Shown here piece by piece: positions 4,139 through 53,044 of a stretch of DNA of 64,000 nucleotides; the stretch's first letter is position 1, and each line of letters opens with the position of its first letter. The position numbers were made by a program, and so were the translations under genes. Source of the stretch: an uncultured Methanomicrobiales archaeon (GTDB taxonomy: Archaea > Halobacteriota > Methanomicrobia > Methanomicrobiales > Methanospirillaceae). Under the pieces are notes generated by a model. That model had not been told where the DNA came from and made no database searches. It worked only from the letters and a program-made list of their open reading frames with translations. The DNA lies in assembly GCA_963758915.1 (NCBI GenBank), contig CAVWXH010000006.1:1-64000 (forward strand). The letters are read 5' to 3'.

Positions 4139-4547
4139 AGTCAGGGGCTCCCTTTGGGGGGAAGAGGTTTGATTCTATATGTTTTATCTGCCAGCCAGAT
4201 ATTTAACAATTGAACCTGAAAGGTTTTTCTCGATGAAGTAAACTGCTTCAATACAGATGGGGTGCAGGAAAAAATAGTAGTGATTTGAACATCGGTGTTA
4301 TGAATCCCTGCTGGATGATTGATAACCCCCCCATATCATAATCGGTGTGGGCGATCGACGATGCAGCCTCGTGATTTACCCTTGAAAAAGACTAAAAAGG
4401 CGGGGTGTCGAAAATAACCAACCATTAAAGGATTTGTTATGCAAAGGCATTGAACCATGAATGACTAAAATCCGGAATAAGGCACTTTATTAATTAGGTG
4501 ATTATTAGGTATTATTTTATTATATAATACGTAATTTTGGCATATTT

Positions 4548-4805
4548 CGCTCTGTTGAAAAGTTATATTAGCCACCCGGAATCCTGATTATTCTGAAATT
4601 TATCTACGCTCTCGGGGCTCCGCCCCGCCGCTGTGGCGCCCCGGTTGGGATAGAGATATCCCCCAATACTCTGAATTTAATGAGCCTTCTGGAAACCCTG
4701 CCCGAAGAATATCTTAATGGGGATGGGGCAGGGGGGGTGAAACCCCCTCCTGTCTTCGTATTTCCCTCTTATTTTTTTATATCACCTAAGGATTTCAACG
4801 GAGCC
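4548..4805. mobile_element. MITE (~258 bp) with IS5-like TIRs and an 8-bp TSD
   Basis: Ends cGCTCTGTTGAAA / TTTCAACGGAGCC. Direct repeat GCATATTT at 4540-4547 and 4806-4813. Body homologous to 21524-21735 and 52768-53029. Confidence 0.88.
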
Positions 4806-5289
4806 GCATATTTTTTAATTATTTCTCGTACGTTCAGCGAAGGAGTGAAACCGGCACGACTATGAATTTCCCTCTTCACGAGCTTGGGTTTTATTCGTTC
4901 TCCGAATTTTTCAAGTAACTTGTCTATCCTCCGGTTGCTCGAATTTCAGGGACTGGGTCTAATCCGCCCGCTTATCACATCCTGGACGGGGTTAAACCTT
5001 GCTCCCAGATGCCAGACAGTGTGATGGAAGAATAGTTCCACACTATATAGAATTATCTAAATCAACAATGCAAAGACCGCGGATATTCACTCCTTACGAT
5101 TCATGGAGGTATTTCTGCTGTAATAATAAAAAATTAAAGCCGAATCAATTGTAATATCAGGATATCTCAAACCTGTGTGAAGGAAAAGAATGCCAGCGAC
5201 CAACTAGCATATATACAATAACCCGGACACGCTGTATTGGATACTTCCCCCTGCAGACCAGCATTGGTTCGTACCCGAGGTTTGGGAAT

Positions 5290-42026: not shown

Positions 42027-43253
42027 ATGACTACAATATTAGAACATGCCAGAGAGGGAATCTGCAGCCCCCAGATGAATGCGGTCGCTTACAACGAAGG
42101 GGTAAACCCGGAAGTCCTTCGTGCTCAAATCATATCCGGAAAAGTTGTAATAATGCACAGGGGGGAAGTTGCGGTGGGAATCGGTAAGGGTTTGCGGACA
42201 AAAATAAACGTTAACCTTGGTTCATCGACAAACCGTGCCCGGTTGTCTGATGAGATAGAAAAAGCGCGAATCGCTGAAAAATATGGTGCAGATACAATCA
42301 GTGACCTCTCAATGGGTGGCAATATTAACAAGATCAGGAAAGAAATTTTTAACCAGACAAAACTTCCTGTCACCACAGTTCCAATTTATCAGGCCGTTGC
42401 GGAATCCGGTCTTAAGGACCTGACTACTGAAGATATTCTCACTACTGTCCGCATGCAGGCACGGCAGGGGATAAGTTCGATCGTGATCCATTGTGTAAAT
42501 GAACGGATGCTAAGTTCGCTACGGCAGAAAAAACGAATTCTTGGCATGGTCTCAAAAGGGGGAGCTATCACAAGTTCTTTTATGCAGATGAATAATTGTG
42601 AAAACCCGTTTATCGGACATTTTTCTGAAATACTAACAATAATGAAAGAATACGATATCGTCCTTTCGCTGGGGAATGCCGCTCGAAGCGGTTGCATCCA
42701 TGATCTCCAGGATGAGACGCAACGTGAGGAGTTTCGACAAAATCTCGAGCTTGCCAACCTCGCACATGCTGAAGGTGTACAGGTCATTATCGAGGGGGCG
42801 GGGGGACATATCCGGGCAGACAGGATTAAAGAGTACATTGAACAGTACAAAAATAACTCCCCATATCCCCTCTTTGTTGCAGGACCACTTCCCACGGACA
42901 TAGCATTCGGGTATGACCATATTGCGGGTTGTGTAGGTGCGAGTATTGCGAGTTCTGCGGGTGCGGATTATCTCTGTGCCATCACACCTGCAGAACATCT
43001 TGGGCTGCCAGGTCTGCAGGAGGTAAAAGAAGGTTTAATCGCATTCAGGATTGCAGCGCATATCGGGGATTCAATGAAGTATGGGAAAGATGAAAAAGAC
43101 CGGGTAATTGCAGAAAAAAGATCAGTACTCGACCTGGAAGGTCAGATGTGCCTTGCACTGGACCGTGAACGTGCGGAAATGTTGTCTTCACGTATTTCTG
43201 AATGTACAATGTGCGGGGATTTCTGTGCAATTAAACTGATGAAAATGTTTTGA
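42027..43253 (+). CDS. ThiC-family radical SAM enzyme (ThiC or a Bza-type paralogue)
   Basis: GLRTKINVNLGSS, GADTISDLSMGG, TDIAFGYDHI, ITPAEHLGLP, C-terminal CTMCGDFC. Confidence 0.88.
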   Translation: MTTILEHAREGICSPQMNAVAYNEGVNPEVLRAQIISGKVVIMHRGEVAVGIGKGLRTKINVNLGSSTNRARLSDEIEKARIAEKYGADTISDLSMGGNINKIRKEIFNQTKLPVTTVPIYQAVAESGLKDLTTEDILTTVRMQARQGISSIVIHCVNERMLSSLRQKKRILGMVSKGGAITSSFMQMNNCENPFIGHFSEILTIMKEYDIVLSLGNAARSGCIHDLQDETQREEFRQNLELANLAHAEGVQVIIEGAGGHIRADRIKEYIEQYKNNSPYPLFVAGPLPTDIAFGYDHIAGCVGASIASSAGADYLCAITPAEHLGLPGLQEVKEGLIAFRIAAHIGDSMKYGKDEKDRVIAEKRSVLDLEGQMCLALDRERAEMLSSRISECTMCGDFCAIKLMKMF

Positions 43254-43542
43254 AAAGAAGCCAAGCGCCGGATAATTTACATGCCGTCAGCTTTGTTGAA
43301 ACACACATGAACGTGGCATTTTCATGGTCCAGCTGTGAACTTCCTGTTCATGTGTGTTTCAACAGAGTCTTGCAGTTTAATTCATCCGAACTGAAAAAAA
43401 AGCATGGGGTTTTTAATAAAAAAAAGAATGCAAATATAAAACATCAAACCAGTAATATAAAATTATTACTATTTATTTTTAATATTTATCCTATTAAAAA
43501 GAAAGATATTTTGAGTGTTTCATGGAAATCCAAAAAAAAGAT

Positions 43543-43740
43543 TTACATCTGGTGTCTTTTATATTCTTCGGCAGTCCTTGAAATTTCATCAAGTTCGCTT
43601 TCAGAGAAGTCAATGGCAAACCCGGCTTTATCATGTTCGTCGAGAAGTTGCTGGATCCTCCTTGACATGACATACATGAAAAAACATTGTACTATAATAA
43701 TCAACCCGAACAGAATAATCAGAGTTTCCTCAATGCTCAT
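43543..43740 (-). CDS. Small single-pass membrane protein coupled to minD
   Basis: N-terminal TM and acidic helical tail. ATGA overlap with the minD stop. Confidence 0.7.
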   Translation of the reverse strand: MSIEETLIILFGLIIIVQCFFMYVMSRRIQQLLDEHDKAGFAIDFSESELDEISRTAEEYKRHQM

Positions 43741-44522
43741 CGTTTCCCTCTAAACAGGACCTTTGCAAAGCGGTCTACAAACCCGTCTTTTGCGGCCTGA
43801 GGGCTTTCCTTAAAAGGCATACCTGCCATATTTGCGGCGATTCTCCTTAAGGCGACGGATGCACCGGAGTCCGGGTATTTTATCACCACAGGTGTTTTAA
43901 ATGATGCGGCCTTCCTGATATTCGGGTCTTCCGGAATAGTTCCGATCACTTTTACTCCAAGGACTTTCTCCATCTTCTGGCTGACAAAATCAGTTTTTTC
44001 AACCCCCGCACGGTTAAGGATGGCTCCCATTACATGACCCCCTACAACTTCGGTCAGGATTTTTGTTTTCAGGGCATCCACAATTGAAGAAAGTTCCGGA
44101 TTAACTACAAGAATAACTTCATCCGCAATTGCAAGGGGGATAACCCCGTCCCTGCTTATACCCGCTGGTGCATCTATCAGCAGGTAATCACAAAGATTGA
44201 CCAACTCCTTAAGTGCGTCCTTCAGTTTTTCCGGGTCAGCCTGCTGGAATCCCTGCAGGGAAATCCCGCTGGGAACAACTTTCAAACCAGCAGGACCTTC
44301 GTAAATTGCATCTTTGATGTTTGCCTTACCAGCTAACACTTCGTGGAGTGTGATCGGAACATCCTCAAGGCCAAGGACAAGGCCAAGATTCGCCATTCCG
44401 ATATCAGCATCCATTATAAATGTCTCTTTCCCCAATTGGGCAAGGCATGTCCCGAGGTTCACAGTCACCGTGGTCTTTCCTGTTCCACCTTTTCCGGAAG
44501 CCAACGTGTAGACTCTGACCAT
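43737..44522 (-). CDS. minD: MinD/ParA-family ATPase
   Basis: SGKGGTGKTT, DADIGMANL, IDAPAG. C-terminal amphipathic GFVDRFAKVLF. Confidence 0.93.
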   Translation of the reverse strand: MVRVYTLASGKGGTGKTTVTVNLGTCLAQLGKETFIMDADIGMANLGLVLGLEDVPITLHEVLAGKANIKDAIYEGPAGLKVVPSGISLQGFQQADPEKLKDALKELVNLCDYLLIDAPAGISRDGVIPLAIADEVILVVNPELSSIVDALKTKILTEVVGGHVMGAILNRAGVEKTDFVSQKMEKVLGVKVIGTIPEDPNIRKAASFKTPVVIKYPDSGASVALRRIAANMAGMPFKESPQAAKDGFVDRFAKVLFRGKR

Positions 44523-45890: not shown

Positions 45891-46018
45891 CAATAAGAGA
45901 TATACAACGGCATATTACATAGTCCTTTTTAACACAAGGTGTTTTAGGGGTTTTAATCACGGTGAAAAGAAAGAATTATCCAAGTACCCTTTTATCCCCA
46001 GATTGATGATTAAATAAC

Positions 46019-47110
46019 GGCTGGTATGAAAAACTCCGGCAAAACAATCTGAAAGACCACCTTTTTCATGCCCATCTATGAGCCAGAGGCTCATAGCACG
46101 CTCTGTAGAAATCATATCTTTGAGCAAAAATTGACCTGATCGACCGAAAAAGCTAAGATACAGTGCCTCCTTACCTTGTTATGCTACTAACCCATAAGGA
46201 GGTAAAATAATGTCATCAAACCGGTGTATTCAGGTTTGTTGAATTATCGTCAGGTTTGATCAAAGATACGAGGATTCCACTTTATTCCTCAAAATATTCA
46301 AAACGGACTTACAATCAGCATCAATTGCTCATCCTCCTGCTTTTAAAAGTATATCTCTCTGAAAATTATCGGGATTCTGTCGAACTCCTGGAAACCATGG
46401 AGACATTAAAAGAGACAATCAACCTTAAAGAAATACCTCATTTTACGACGCTTCAGAAGTTCTGCCAAAGTATACGATCAATTACCTTCACCGTTTTAAT
46501 GAACCGGCTTATCAAAATGTTTTACGACTGGGGAGAACGAATTGCCTGCACCGCTATCGATTCATCCGGGTTCACAAGCTCATATGCCAGCCATTACTAC
46601 TCCATCAGAACAGGAAATATCAGGAAAAGATTTCTTAAAACCTCAATCTCTATTGATAGCGACCGACAGATAATCACCGGTCTGAAAATAACCCAACATC
46701 ACGTACACGATGTCCTCCACGCTGAAAAACTCCTGAAACAATGCCATAGAACCAGAAAATCTGAACTCTATGTTATGGACAAGGGATACGATTCAGAGGA
46801 GGTTCATCACCAGATCCGGGATACTATGGACTCAATCTCTCTTATCCCGATACGTGAAAGAAAAAGAAAGCGGATTTCCGGTCATTACAGAAGAAAAATA
46901 ATGATTTCATTCGAGTCTGATCTATACCATCAACGAAACAAGGTTGAAACCGTGTTCTCCGTATTGAAAAGAAAGTTCGCTGAAGCCCTTAAGGCGCGGA
47001 AATACCGACTTCAGGTTAAGGAAATAAAAATCAAAGCGATCCTCTATAACATCCCAAGAGCGATGACCTATTTTTTTATTCTTATTGTAATTGAGGAATT
47101 CTACAGAGCC
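46019..47110 (+). mobile_element. IS5-like insertion sequence including an 80-bp cap; 8-bp TSD TAAATAAC
   Basis: Inner TIRs cGCTCTGTAGAAATC (46099) and GAATTCTACAGAGCC (47110). TAAATAAC at 46011-46018 and 47111-47118. Confidence 0.9.
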
Positions 47111-47113
47111 TAA
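46210..47113 (+). CDS. IS5-like DDE transposase (apparent +1 frameshift at ~46230)
   Basis: [53 protein letters not shown] before the ATG at 46210. Confidence 0.92.
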
Positions 47114-47209
47114 ATAACCTTGAATTAAAATAATGTTAGGAAACATATTTATCATCGTATACCAGAAATTCAGTTTAAATAGAGATGGTTTATATCGGGG
47201 AGATTCGGA

Positions 47210-52582: not shown

Positions 52583-52688
52583 CCGGAACATTTCCTGCAG
52601 GATAACACATGGGAAATAAATCCCGTGTGAGATTCAACCCCTGGGATCAATTTTATACAGGGAAATATCGTGAAGAGTTGGTTTTTCC

Positions 52689-53029
52689 GGCTGGTATGAA
52701 AAACTACGGCAAAACTATCAAAATGCCAATTTTTTCATGTGAATCTATGAGCCAGAGGCTCGTAGCACGCTCTGTTGAAACCCTTCGGTGTCAAAAAAAA
52801 TAAGAGGGAAATACGAAGACAGGAGGGGGTTTCACCCCCTCCCTGCCCCACCCCCATTAAGATATTCTTCGGGCAGGGTTTCCCGAAGGCTCATTAAATT
52901 CAGAGTATTGGGGGATAGTCTCTATCCCAACCAGGGTCGCATAAGCACCGGGCCATGAACCCCGGGAGCGTAACGAAATTTAGGAATTCCCAATCTGCAA
53001 GATATATTTGAGAGGGTTTCAACAGAGCC
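52689..53029. mobile_element. MITE (core 52768-53029) carrying the same ~79-bp cap as the IS; 8-bp TSD GTTTTTCC
   Basis: Core ends cGCTCTGTTGAAACCC / GGGTTTCAACAGAGCC. GTTTTTCC at 52681-52688 and 53030-53037. The core is a reverse-oriented homologue of 4548-4805. Confidence 0.9.
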
Positions 53030-53044
53030 GTTTTTCCTTACCTT

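What the first reader, a model, noticed from the sequence alone, without database searches (positions are those of the whole stretch)
46011..46113. The same ~80-bp double-hairpin cap sits inside the TSDs of both the IS and a MITE
Seen: 46019-46098 and 52689-52767 are homologous (GGCTGGTATGAAAAACT...TTTTTCATG...CTATGAGCCAGAGGCTC(A/G)TAGCA). Each directly abuts the inner TIR cGCTCTGT. In both cases the 8-bp TSD (TAAATAAC; GTTTTTCC) lies outside the cap. A sister MITE at 4548 has its TSD directly on the TIR with no cap. Two stems (ATGAAAAA/TTTTTCAT and CTATGAGCC/GGCTCATAG) are conserved while the first loop diverges. Inference: either a tiny site-specific parasite that inserts into the first bases of this TIR (analogous to IS4321/IS5075 targeting Tn21 TIRs) or an alternative transposon end that is co-mobilised.
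Basis: partly seen in the sequence, partly recalled or inferred. Interest (0 to 1): 0.7.

Follow-up and report, generated by a model that had tools for sequence, protein, structure and literature searches.

The report
Mini IS110 element capping transposon ends
The 80-base "cap" is a stripped-down copy of an RNA-guided IS110-type jumping gene that plugs itself, always at the same spot and in the same direction, into the very tip of the end repeats of another transposon family in methane-producing archaea.

Summary

The cap is not a normal end of the IS5-family IS. None of 23 related IS loci carries it, and 11 of them have their duplication directly on the repeat.

It is a 79-80-bp, transposase-less derivative of a ~1.55-kb IS110-family element. 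Its two ends match the full element: 33-34 of 38 bases at the left end and 15 of 17 at the right.

Intact copies with a 413-aa DEDD transposase sit at exactly this position on the same repeat tip in metagenome contigs. So do ~318-bp intermediate derivatives.

Five orthologous loci show the same MITE with and without the cap. Near-identical caps sit on unrelated MITE bodies, so the cap moves alone. The outer duplication is simply the host element's old one.

The full element's upstream non-coding region holds short segments that copy the repeat tip and its own right end, and they covary with both. In this genome the cap's end variant tracks the repeat variant (Fisher p = 7e-7). This fits bridge/seek-RNA guidance, which is inferred, not shown.

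The genome itself has 51 caps but no IS110 transposase.

Verdict: a new archaeal variant of a known kind.

The parts
46011..46018 (.). Left copy of the 8-bp target duplication (TAAATAAC) of the IS5-family IS
   Evidence: The site is empty in G006 and G010, where the flanks abut with an 8-bp overlap.
46019..46019 (+). First base (G) of the IS5-family IS left TIR, split from the rest of the TIR by the insert
   Evidence: Position 1 varies among caps as TIR base 1 does. An orthologous uncapped allele keeps the same base.
46020..46099 (-). Cap A: an 80-nt miniature IS110-family element made of left end plus right end, with no transposase and no guide-RNA region. Its boundary is ambiguous by 3 nt (GCT at 46020-22 equals 46100-02). 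Read on the minus strand it runs left end to right end.
   Evidence: Ends match the full-length elements: 33-34 of 38 at the left end, 15 of 17 at the right. Five caps in this genome, this one included, cluster at about 96-100% identity and sit on five different bodies.
46100..47110 (+). Remainder of the IS5-family IS: inner left TIR GCTCTGTAGAAA and right TIR ending ACAGAGCC at 47110
   Evidence: The transposase ORF 46256-47113 scores as NCBIfam IS5 family (203 bits, cut-off 140) and Pfam DDE_Tnp_1.
47111..47118 (.). Right copy of the TAAATAAC duplication
52681..52688 (.). Left copy of the MITE's 8-bp duplication (GTTTTTCC)
52689..52689 (+). First base (G) of the MITE left TIR
   Evidence: Same reasoning as for 46019.
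52690..52768 (-). Cap B: a 79-nt miniature IS110-family element
   Evidence: 85% identical to cap A. 98.7% identical to a cap at G000:C9:96399, whose orthologous MITE in G010 has no cap.
52769..53029 (+). MITE body with inner left TIR and right TIR
   Evidence: more than 100 related copies in the genome.
53030..53037 (.). Right copy of the GTTTTTCC duplication
4540..4813 (.). Uncapped sister MITE (4548-4805) with its duplication GCATATTT directly on both TIRs

Best explanation
**What it is.** The cap is a non-autonomous miniature of a ~1.55-kb IS110-family (IS110-type, DEDD transposase) insertion sequence.
- It keeps about 38 nt of the element's left end. That stretch holds the 9-bp hairpin and the ATGAAAAA arm.
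- It keeps about 17 nt of the right end, ending TTTTTCATAyCAGC.
- About 25 nt of filler lies between the two ends.
- It has lost the transposase gene and the ~240-nt upstream non-coding region.

**Where it inserts.** The element family inserts without a duplication of its own, in one orientation. The site is the tip of the TIR of an IS5-family IS and its MITEs: after TIR base 1, within a 3-nt overlap (AGC on the transposase strand).
- Because the insert lands inside the host element, the host's old 8-bp duplication stays outside the cap.

**Inferred steps.**
- An RNA from the non-coding region guides the recombinase. One segment copies the TIR tip and acts as a left-target guide. Another copies the element's right end and acts as a left-donor guide.
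- Caps are moved in trans by a full-length copy.
- A capped TIR is probably dead for the IS5 transposase.
For: **1. Same ends and same site as a full-length element.**
- Intact elements of 1551-1555 bp carry a 413-aa ORF with DEDD_Tnp_IS110 and Transposase_20 domains.
- They begin G[CT]GCTATGAGCC..CTCATAGATGAGTATGAAAA directly after ..[AT]ACAGAGC, and end ..GTTTTTCATACCAGC followed by C.
- The left-end junction is seen in 11 of 17 metagenome loci, with 9 distinct left flanks.
- A frameshifted copy lies in G006.
- NCBIfam calls relatives 'IS110 family RNA-guided transposase'.

**2. Intermediates.**
- Transposase-less derivatives of ~318-319 bp with both cap-like ends lie at a TIR tip in G006 and in a Methanoregula MAG.
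- A contig in one DNA run joins the non-coding region to the right end, skipping 1276 bp.
- One orthologous TIR carries the 318-bp form in G006 and a 78-bp cap in G000.

**3. Capped and uncapped alleles.** Five orthologous pairs differ by exactly the ~80-bp insert.

**4. Empty-site allele of a full-length copy.** Contigs of one DNA run and one RNA-library run join across exactly 1555 bp with a 3-nt ambiguity.

**5. Independent movement.**
- There are 32 cap pairs at least 95% identical.
- Apart from one same-locus duplicate, their bodies are at most 78% identical (clusters).

**6. Specificity.**
- 51 caps lie in the genome.
- About 40 of 43 near-full caps abut the TIR in one orientation.
- The outer flank is not conserved.

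**7. Guide-like covariation.**

| Element | Left flank | Segment 1 of the non-coding region | Right end | Segment 3 |
|---|---|---|---|---|
| L052, L140 | ACAGAGC | ACAGAGC | ATACCAG (seen in L140; damaged in L052) | ATACCAG |
| L065 | ACAAAGC | ACAAAGC | ATATCAG | ATATCAG |
| L070 | AAAAAGTC | AAAAAGTC | ATATCAGA | ATATCAGA |

- In G000, the cap end variant (G or A) against the TIR variant (C or T) gives 22, 4, 0 and 12; Fisher p = 6.7e-7.
- Durrant 2024 (passages) states that left guides pair with the bottom strand, so they read like the top strand.
- Siddiquee 2024 (sections 4, 6, 12, 13) places the non-coding region upstream in the IS110 type. It also shows that a mini-IS with a 29-bp left end and a 16-bp right end moves in trans.
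Against: **No enzyme in this genome.**
- G000 holds no IS110-family transposase and no non-coding-region copy. It is 94% complete.
- Its caps therefore have no visible enzyme, although four of them are identical.

**No direct evidence of the mechanism.**
- No circle junction, RNA end or transposition event was observed.
- RNA-library contigs cover the non-coding region and parts of the gene. Contigs cannot show transcription.
- No Rfam family matches.

**Loose ends in the guide model.**
- A third copied segment in the non-coding region (ATAGATGAGT) matches a site 22-31 nt inside the left end rather than its terminus. The simple four-guide model does not explain this.
- The target's right half is only 1-2 conserved bases, which is unusually one-sided.
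- 4 of 26 G-type caps sit on the non-matching TIR variant.

**Young capped insertions.**
- Several insertions specific to the G000 lineage are already capped: the IS at 46011, C9:101683, C16:314715 and C1:43763.
- That needs two events each. Alternatively it allows some co-mobilisation.
Confidence: 0.88

Rival explanations
1. The cap is an alternative, extended left end. The IS5-family transposase recognises it, and it is carried along when the IS or MITE transposes (co-mobilisation).
For: - 8-bp duplications lie outside the cap. They are perfect in 6 of 51 capped elements and have one mismatch in 6 more.
- The outer end keeps GGCT, like the TIR.
- Insertions specific to the G000 lineage that are absent from G006 and/or G010 are already capped.
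Against: - Five orthologous loci differ only by the cap.
- No pair of near-identical caps at different loci shares a body above 78% identity: 31 of 31 pairs.
- None of 23 related IS5-family loci has a cap, and 11 of 23 have their duplication directly on the TIR.
- The cap's ends belong to an IS110-family element.
- An insert inside the TIR leaves the old duplication outside whatever happens later.
Confidence: 0.06
2. The cap is a hairpin-ended derivative of an IS200/IS605-type single-strand transposon (a PATE). It would insert 3' of a short target word in the TIR.
For: - Two hairpins, no duplication of its own, and a fixed orientation.
Against: - No Y1 transposase is present in the genome, and only one borderline TnpB-type hit.
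- The full-length elements carrying these ends encode a DEDD IS110-family transposase.
Confidence: 0.02
3. Caps spread between MITE ends by homologous recombination or gene conversion at the shared TIR, not by transposition of the cap.
For: - Identical caps sit on different bodies that share only the TIR.
Against: - There is no homology on the outer side, which is unique flanking DNA. Conversion therefore has no second anchor.
- Insert boundaries are exact to 3 nt at unrelated loci.
- A dedicated recombinase element with the same ends exists.
- The end variant covaries with the target variant.
Confidence: 0.03

Closest known systems
IS4321 / IS5075 (IS1111 group), which target the 38-bp TIRs of Tn21-family transposons. 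Partridge and Hall 2003 was seen only as a title in a reference list. Siddiquee et al. 2024 mention the IS4321 target logo (section 13).
   Same: - A DEDD-transposase IS inserts at one position and in one orientation inside the terminal inverted repeat of another transposon.
- It makes no duplication of its own.
   Different: - The element here is IS110-type, not IS1111-type. Its long non-coding region lies upstream of the gene. Its left extension before the subterminal repeat is ~29 nt with a hairpin, not 7 nt (definitions).
- The host is an archaeon.
- The target is the first 1-4 bases of an IS5-family TIR.
- The common form is an 80-bp miniature, not the full IS.
ISEc21 (IS110 family) and its seekRNA (Siddiquee et al. 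2024, PMC11187229; sections 4, 6, 12 and 13 read)
   Same: - The non-coding region lies upstream and holds short matches to the target.
- The target lies inside another IS family.
- No duplication is made.
- An engineered mini-IS with a 29-bp left end and a 16-bp right end moves in trans. That is close to the natural cap's ~38 and ~17 nt.
   Different: - ISEc21 targets the coding region of IS3-family transposases, not a TIR tip.
- Its mini-IS is man-made, whereas here miniatures are natural and abundant (51 in one genome).
- Function here is inferred only.
IS621 bridge RNA (Durrant et al. 2024, PMC11208160; passages read)
   Same: - Left-target and left-donor guides read like the top strand of the target and of the right end, and include a short core.
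- A short donor (22 bp) suffices when the RNA is supplied in trans.
- Guide and target covary across orthologues.
   Different: - The transposase is a longer type: 413 aa here, against the 315-330 aa that Siddiquee et al. give for the IS621/IS492 branch (section 6).
- The overlap is AGC, where IS621 has a CT core.
- The right-target and right-donor guides could not be assigned.
- There is no Rfam match.
MITEPpu9, associated with ISPpu9 (PMC12288879; passages read)
   Same: - A MITE-like, transposase-less derivative carries the ends of an IS110-family IS and is thought to move in trans.
   Different: - MITEPpu9 carries an sRNA gene and sits in REP sequences.
- The caps carry no RNA region and sit in transposon TIR tips.
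- The ~318-bp derivatives here are the closer analogue.
IS1111 inserting into QMITE2 of Coxiella (PMC5896051; passages read), and IS1383 in the inverted repeats of IS1384 (title only)
   Same: - A DEDD IS uses a MITE or the inverted repeat of another IS as its specific target.
- Strain comparisons show filled and unfilled MITEs.
   Different: - Those insertions are full-length ISs in bacteria, into a REP-like palindrome or an inverted repeat.
- Those passages describe no 80-bp derivatives.

Membership tests
IS110 family (full-length parents of the cap) | DEDD (RuvC-like) N-terminal domain plus a Transposase_20 C-terminal domain | tested here: met
   - Three of three intact ORFs tested (L172, L166, L175) have PF01548 (95.6-97.8 bits) and PF02371 (82.4-85.8 bits).
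- Relatives score over the NCBIfam NF033542 cut-off.
IS110 family (full-length parents of the cap) | Site- and orientation-specific insertion without a target duplication | tested here: met
   - 11 of 17 metagenome loci have their left end directly after ..ACAGAGC.
- About 40 of 43 caps abut the TIR in one orientation.
- Only a 3-nt overlap is shared by the junctions.
IS110 type in the sense of Siddiquee et al. 2024 | A long non-coding region upstream of the transposase gene, holding short matches to the target | tested here: met
   - A ~240-nt region lies between the left end and the gene.
- An 8-nt match to the left flank covaries with it in L052, L140, L065 and L070.
IS110 family | Circular intermediate with abutted ends, and an RNA bound to the transposase | not testable with these tools
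   - No circle junction appeared among the joints of four runs.
- All four runs are contigs only, so absence means nothing.
IS1111 group | Subterminal inverted repeats of 11-13 bp, 7 bp from the left end and 3 bp from the right, with the long non-coding region downstream of the gene | tested here: not met
   - The repeat ATGAAAAA/TTTTTCAT is 8-11 bp.
- It lies ~29 nt from the left end and ~6 nt from the right.
- The non-coding region is upstream.
Non-autonomous derivative of that IS110-family element (the cap itself) | Both termini of the parent, internal deletion, and the same target position | tested here: met
   - 33-34 of 38 at the left end and 15 of 17 at the right.
- 318-319-bp intermediates exist.
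- One orthologous TIR carries the 318-bp form in one genome and the 78-bp form in the other.
Classical MITE of a DDE transposon (the cap itself) | Terminal inverted repeats of the parent DDE IS, and its own target duplication | tested here: not met
   - No duplication flanks the cap alone.
- The outer flank is unique DNA and the inner flank is the TIR.
IS5 family (the host IS at 46019-47110) | DDE transposase of the IS5 family, terminal inverted repeats and a target duplication | tested here: met
   - NF033579 scores 203 bits against a cut-off of 140.
- PF01609 is present.
- 11 of 23 relatives have perfect 8-bp duplications on GGCTCTGT-type TIRs.
- Assignment to the ISH1 subgroup (8-bp duplication) is recalled only.
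IS200/IS605 derivative (PATE) | A Y1 or TnpB partner whose ends match | tested here: not met
   - PF01797 gives 0 hits in G000.
- There is one borderline PF07282 hit, and it is unrelated to the caps.

The most novel reading that the evidence does not exclude
**A three-tier parasite system in Methanoregulaceae.**
- A full IS110-type element carries the recombinase and the guide RNA.
- Satellites of ~318 bp keep only the guide-RNA region and the ends.
- Guide-less minimal donors of 80 bp amplify to dozens of copies.

All three aim at the tip of another transposon's TIR.

**Two specificity types coexist.**
- One pairs right end ATACCAG with target ACAGAGC.
- The other pairs right end ATATCAG with target ACAAAGC.
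- They behave as naturally reprogrammed guide, donor and target sets.

**A possible effect on the host transposons.** By splitting TIR base 1 from the rest of the repeat, the caps may immobilise IS5-family elements. That would make them a hyperparasite acting as a brake on the host's main MITE family.
Probability: 0.4. Interest if true: 0.78.

Novelty: new variant of a known kind. Interest (0 to 1): 0.62.

Why it matters
**A natural counterpart of engineered mini-donors.**
- Guide-RNA recombinases of the IS110 family are now used as programmable insertion tools.
- Here nature seems to have made the mini-donor that experimenters build. It is an ~80-bp left end plus right end, moved in trans.
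- It comes with guide-only satellites and with two matched donor/target variants. That is a ready comparative data set for how donor and target guides co-evolve.

**A clean case of one transposon parasitising another.**
- It occurs in archaea.
- It has orthologous filled and unfilled sites.
- It gives a testable idea: capping a TIR switches the host transposon off.

**A point for annotation.** The ~80-bp double hairpin next to GCTCTGT repeats should not be read as part of the IS5-family element.

Tried and rejected
**Ideas rejected**
- *The cap as the normal IS end.* Rejected: none of 23 related IS loci has it.
- *An IS200/IS605 origin.* Rejected: no Y1 transposase in the genome.
- *A mini-MITE of the IS5 family built from degenerate TIR tips.* I had noted that the hairpin arm GGCTCATAG resembles the TIR tip. 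I dropped this once the IS110 parent was found. The resemblance remains unexplained.

**Searches that gave nothing**
- *A known RNA family.* Rfam gave no match in 45900-46300. In six IS110 loci it gave nothing apart from an unrelated tRNA and a weak snoRNA-like hit.
- *An autonomous partner inside G000.* Split-cap searches gave only chance-level short hits. There is no PF01548 hit.

**Comparisons that did not resolve**
- *The orthologue of the window MITE at 52681.* Not clean. G006 has a different composite at the same site and G010 has a degenerate copy.
- *L069.* It is the closest transposase in the order-wide search (69% identity), but its upstream region is not homologous and it has an in-frame TAG. 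It was not used.
- *Consensus fold of the non-coding region.* With only four sequences the covariation term was slightly unfavourable (+0.44 kcal/mol of -23.64 in all), and 4 of 29 predicted pairs kept pairing through changes on both sides. I draw no structural claim beyond the placement of the segments.
- *Right-target and right-donor guides.* They could not be assigned. A GGCT word in the 5' half of the loop is only a 4-mer.

**Evidence too weak to use**
- *RNA evidence.* Two metatranscriptome-library runs hold contigs over the non-coding region and parts of the gene. Contigs cannot show transcription, strand or ends. No circle junction was seen.
- *Gaps in depth in those runs.* They carry no meaning.

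- The first ends-and-duplication script had a faulty pattern (second part). It was redone.
- A first identity count was one base out of register. It was redone.
Full report
**The observation**

The two stretches 46019-46098 and 52689-52767 are 85% identical. Each is followed at once by CGCTCTGT and the rest of a terminal inverted repeat (TIR). That repeat recurs 9 times in the window, against 1.1 expected.

The first cap heads a 1.09-kb element ending ACAGAGCC at 47110. It is flanked by TAAATAAC on both sides. The second heads a 341-bp MITE flanked by GTTTTTCC. The MITE at 4548-4805 has its duplication GCATATTT directly on the TIR.

Both hairpins are predicted when the cap is folded as single-stranded DNA (z = -3.0 and -3.6). 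The window is archaeal: it holds archaellum genes and topoisomerase VI. The IS encodes an IS5-family DDE transposase.

**The cap in the whole genome**

The assembly has 18 contigs and 2.38 Mb. The window is C6:1-64000.

- It holds 51 cap copies.
- Of 43 near-full copies, about 40 are followed by CGCT[CT]TGT[AT]GAAA, always in the same orientation. The DNA on the outer side is AT-rich but not conserved.
- Of 157 strictly defined TIR ends, 32 are capped.
- Six capped elements have perfect 8-bp duplications outside the cap, and six more have one mismatch.

**Not the normal end of the IS**

Twenty-three loci with related IS5-family transposases (32-66% identity) were taken from other genomes of the order and from G000 itself. 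None contains the cap. In 11 of the 23, a perfect 8-bp duplication lies directly on a GGCTCTGT-type TIR.

The cap plus TIR is found in 7 of 31 related genomes, counting G000 itself. Four of the other six are of the same genus. An exact-pattern scan of one genome per species found 27 loci. All are in MAGs labelled Methanoregulaceae, Methanoregula or Methanomicrobiales, apart from one Methanoculleus MAG.

**The cap moves on its own**

Caps cluster into near-identical groups that sit on quite different partners.

- One group of seven caps sits on at least four kinds of MITE end. Four of the seven are identical apart from the outermost base.
- The group containing cap A sits on the IS, on a MITE-C end and on three other bodies.
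- Among 32 cap pairs at least 95% identical, only one pair has identical flanks, and that pair is a duplicated contig end. The other 31 pairs have bodies at most 78% identical.

**Orthologous sites**

G006 and G010 are close relatives, with flanks 87-97% identical. I examined 18 G000 cap loci.

Four have the same TIR at the same site in G010 without the ~80-bp insert:
- C9:96399
- C3:349946
- C16:59195
- C16:188374

In a fifth case the cap is in G006 and absent in G000.

The insert lies after TIR base 1. GCT is repeated at both junctions, so the crossover point is ambiguous by 3 nt.
- It varies among caps (G 34, A 3, T 3, C 3), as base 1 does at uncapped ends.
- At C16:59195 it is C in both alleles.

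Other loci fall into these classes:
- Shared and capped in both genomes: C16:318520, C5:34029, C1:28595, C9:104548.
- Empty in the relatives: the IS at 46011, C9:101683, C16:314715, C1:43763.
- Unresolved: the window MITE at 52681 and four others (C9:87598, C3:365182, C5:21320, C16:47872).

**The parent element**

G000 has no Y1 transposase and no IS110-family transposase. All four cap-bearing relatives tested have IS110-family genes.

*In G006.* One such gene is frameshifted but has both Pfam domains. It lies next to a MITE whose TIR runs straight into the cap's hairpin and ATGAAAAA arm.

*The 318-bp form.* A second G006 locus holds a transposase-less version with that left end, ~230 bp of upstream non-coding region, and a right end TTTTTCATATCAGC followed by C. 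That right end is the reverse complement of the cap's outer end. A 319-bp version lies in a Methanoregula MAG.

*Metagenome contigs.* They gave 18 related loci, of which 17 were analysed.
- Seven have uninterrupted 441-codon open frames.
- Three of three tested have both IS110 domains.
- Eleven show the left end directly after ..[AT]ACAGAGC, with 9 distinct left flanks. One of these flanks looks like the right end of the IS5-family IS itself.
- Four show both ends, giving elements of 1551-1555 bp that end ..CATACCAGC before a C.

Cap A matches these at 33-34 of 38 left-end positions and 15 of 17 right-end positions.

At G000:C16:183823 a 78-bp cap occupies the very TIR that in G006 carries the 318-bp form. 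This is either an in-place deletion or two separate hits on the same target.

In public runs, contigs of one DNA run and of one RNA-library run join across exactly 1555 bp with a 3-nt ambiguity. That is the unfilled allele of a full-length copy. Another contig shows a further ~316-bp deletion form.

**How it probably works**

*What is shown:*
- the ends are shared;
- the position and orientation are fixed;
- no duplication of the insert's own is made;
- filled and unfilled alleles exist.

*What is inferred:* guidance by an RNA from the upstream region. Three lines support it.

1. The family is the one now known to use bridge or seek RNAs (NCBIfam name; Siddiquee 2024 sections read; Durrant 2024 passages). 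The long non-coding region lies upstream, as in the IS110 type.

2. At homologous places in that region lie an 8-nt copy of the left flank and a 7-8-nt copy of the right end. Both change together with the flank and the end in four elements. The element's own right end can be read in three of the four, because the G006 full-length copy has a damaged right end.

| Left flank and its copy | Right end and its copy |
|---|---|
| ACAGAGC | ATACCAG |
| ACAAAGC | ATATCAG |
| AAAAAGTC | ATATCAGA |

Durrant et al. state that left-target and left-donor guides pair with the bottom strand, so they read like the top strand.

3. In G000 the cap's end variant tracks the TIR variant it sits on. The counts are G with C 22, G with T 4, A with C 0 and A with T 12, from 38 of 42 loci (Fisher p = 6.7e-7). 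Uncapped ends are 73 T to 52 C.

The 80-bp cap lacks the RNA region, so it would need recombinase and RNA in trans. Siddiquee et al. moved a mini-IS with a 29-bp left end and a 16-bp right end in that way.

Because base 1 of the TIR is split from the rest, a capped end is probably useless to the IS5 transposase. This was not tested.

**What does not fit**

- G000 has many very similar caps but no enzyme.
- A third copied segment of the non-coding region matches 22-31 nt inside the left end, which is unexplained.
- The right half of the target is only one or two conserved bases.
- Four G-type caps sit on the other TIR variant.
- No circle junction or RNA end was seen.
- Young, already capped insertions leave room for occasional transposition of the capped unit.

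**Comparison with the known**

The closest cases are:
- IS4321/IS5075 in Tn21 TIRs, and IS1383 in IS1384 repeats (titles only);
- ISEc21, which targets IS3-family genes and works as a mini-IS in trans;
- IS1111 in the QMITE2 of Coxiella;
- MITEPpu9.

The element here is IS110-type, not IS1111-type. It is archaeal, it targets the tip of an IS5-family TIR, and it exists mostly as 80-bp guide-less miniatures beside ~318-bp guide-only forms.

My searches did not turn up a description of such miniatures or of this target. The terms were IS110, MITE, non-autonomous and bridge RNA; seekRNA and IS1111; Methanoregula, MITEs and insertion sequences; and IS110, IS1111, inverted repeats, target site and archaea. 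Supplements of those papers were not read.

**Verdict**

It is a new variant of a known kind, of moderate to high interest.

Noticed in passing
window 46211-46256: The IS5-family transposase gene appears damaged at its start. Compared with a 66%-identical relative, a 1-nt insertion and a 1-nt deletion about 15 nt apart put a TGA in frame after the ATG at 46211. The longest ORF therefore starts at TTG 46256. The capped IS may be dead on two counts.
   Followed up: partly
G000:C9:104597-104767; loci L051, L053, L055, L056: A second IS110-family lineage has ends ATGAAAAy.. and ..ATTTTCAT and also lives inside MITEs. A 171-bp miniature of it interrupts a cap in G000 and is absent from the orthologous cap in G006. 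It has about 15 partial copies in G000.
   Followed up: partly
L065:1405-1722 (G006), L140 (Methanoregula MAG), and the joint 461 to 1738 in run X8: A ~316-319-bp form recurs. It keeps the left end, the whole upstream non-coding region and the right end, but has no transposase. It may be a satellite carrying only the guide RNA.
   Followed up: partly
L052:1380-1400 and homologous places in L065, L140 and L070: A segment of the non-coding region (ATAGATGAGT; ACATGCAAT in L070) copies a site 22-31 nt inside the element's own left end, and covaries with it. The simple target/donor guide scheme does not explain it.
   Followed up: no
window 43290-43368: A ~79-bp mini-MITE made of two facing TIRs of the MITE-C type lies within the open frame 43250-43753.
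   Followed up: no
window 46150-46215 and the same place in L012-L034: Upstream of the IS5-family transposase gene, relatives share a conserved stretch (GACCGAAAGATCTAAGGTACA..). It has an inverted repeat that includes the ribosome-binding site (..CTCCTT.. / ..AAGGAG..). It may be a translational control hairpin.
   Followed up: no
L107 (G006:C5) against window 52660-53040: At the same insertion point as the window's capped MITE, G006 carries a different composite. It has a MITE-C left end, a fragment of the second IS110 lineage and the MITE in the opposite orientation. This suggests an insertion hot spot or local rearrangement.
   Followed up: partly
L179 (metagenome contig): One full-length IS110-family copy sits on a TIR whose inner sequence (..ATTGAGGAATTCTACAGAGC) matches the right end of the IS5-family IS itself. 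So full ISs are hit at either end, not only MITEs.
   Followed up: no
L154 (MAG labelled Methanoculleus marisnigri); L006 and L007 (G022, G027, another family of the order): Hairpin-plus-TIR junctions occur outside the window's genus. In G022 the first loop is about twice as long. This points to an older or horizontally spread system, or to binning error in the Methanoculleus case.
   Followed up: no
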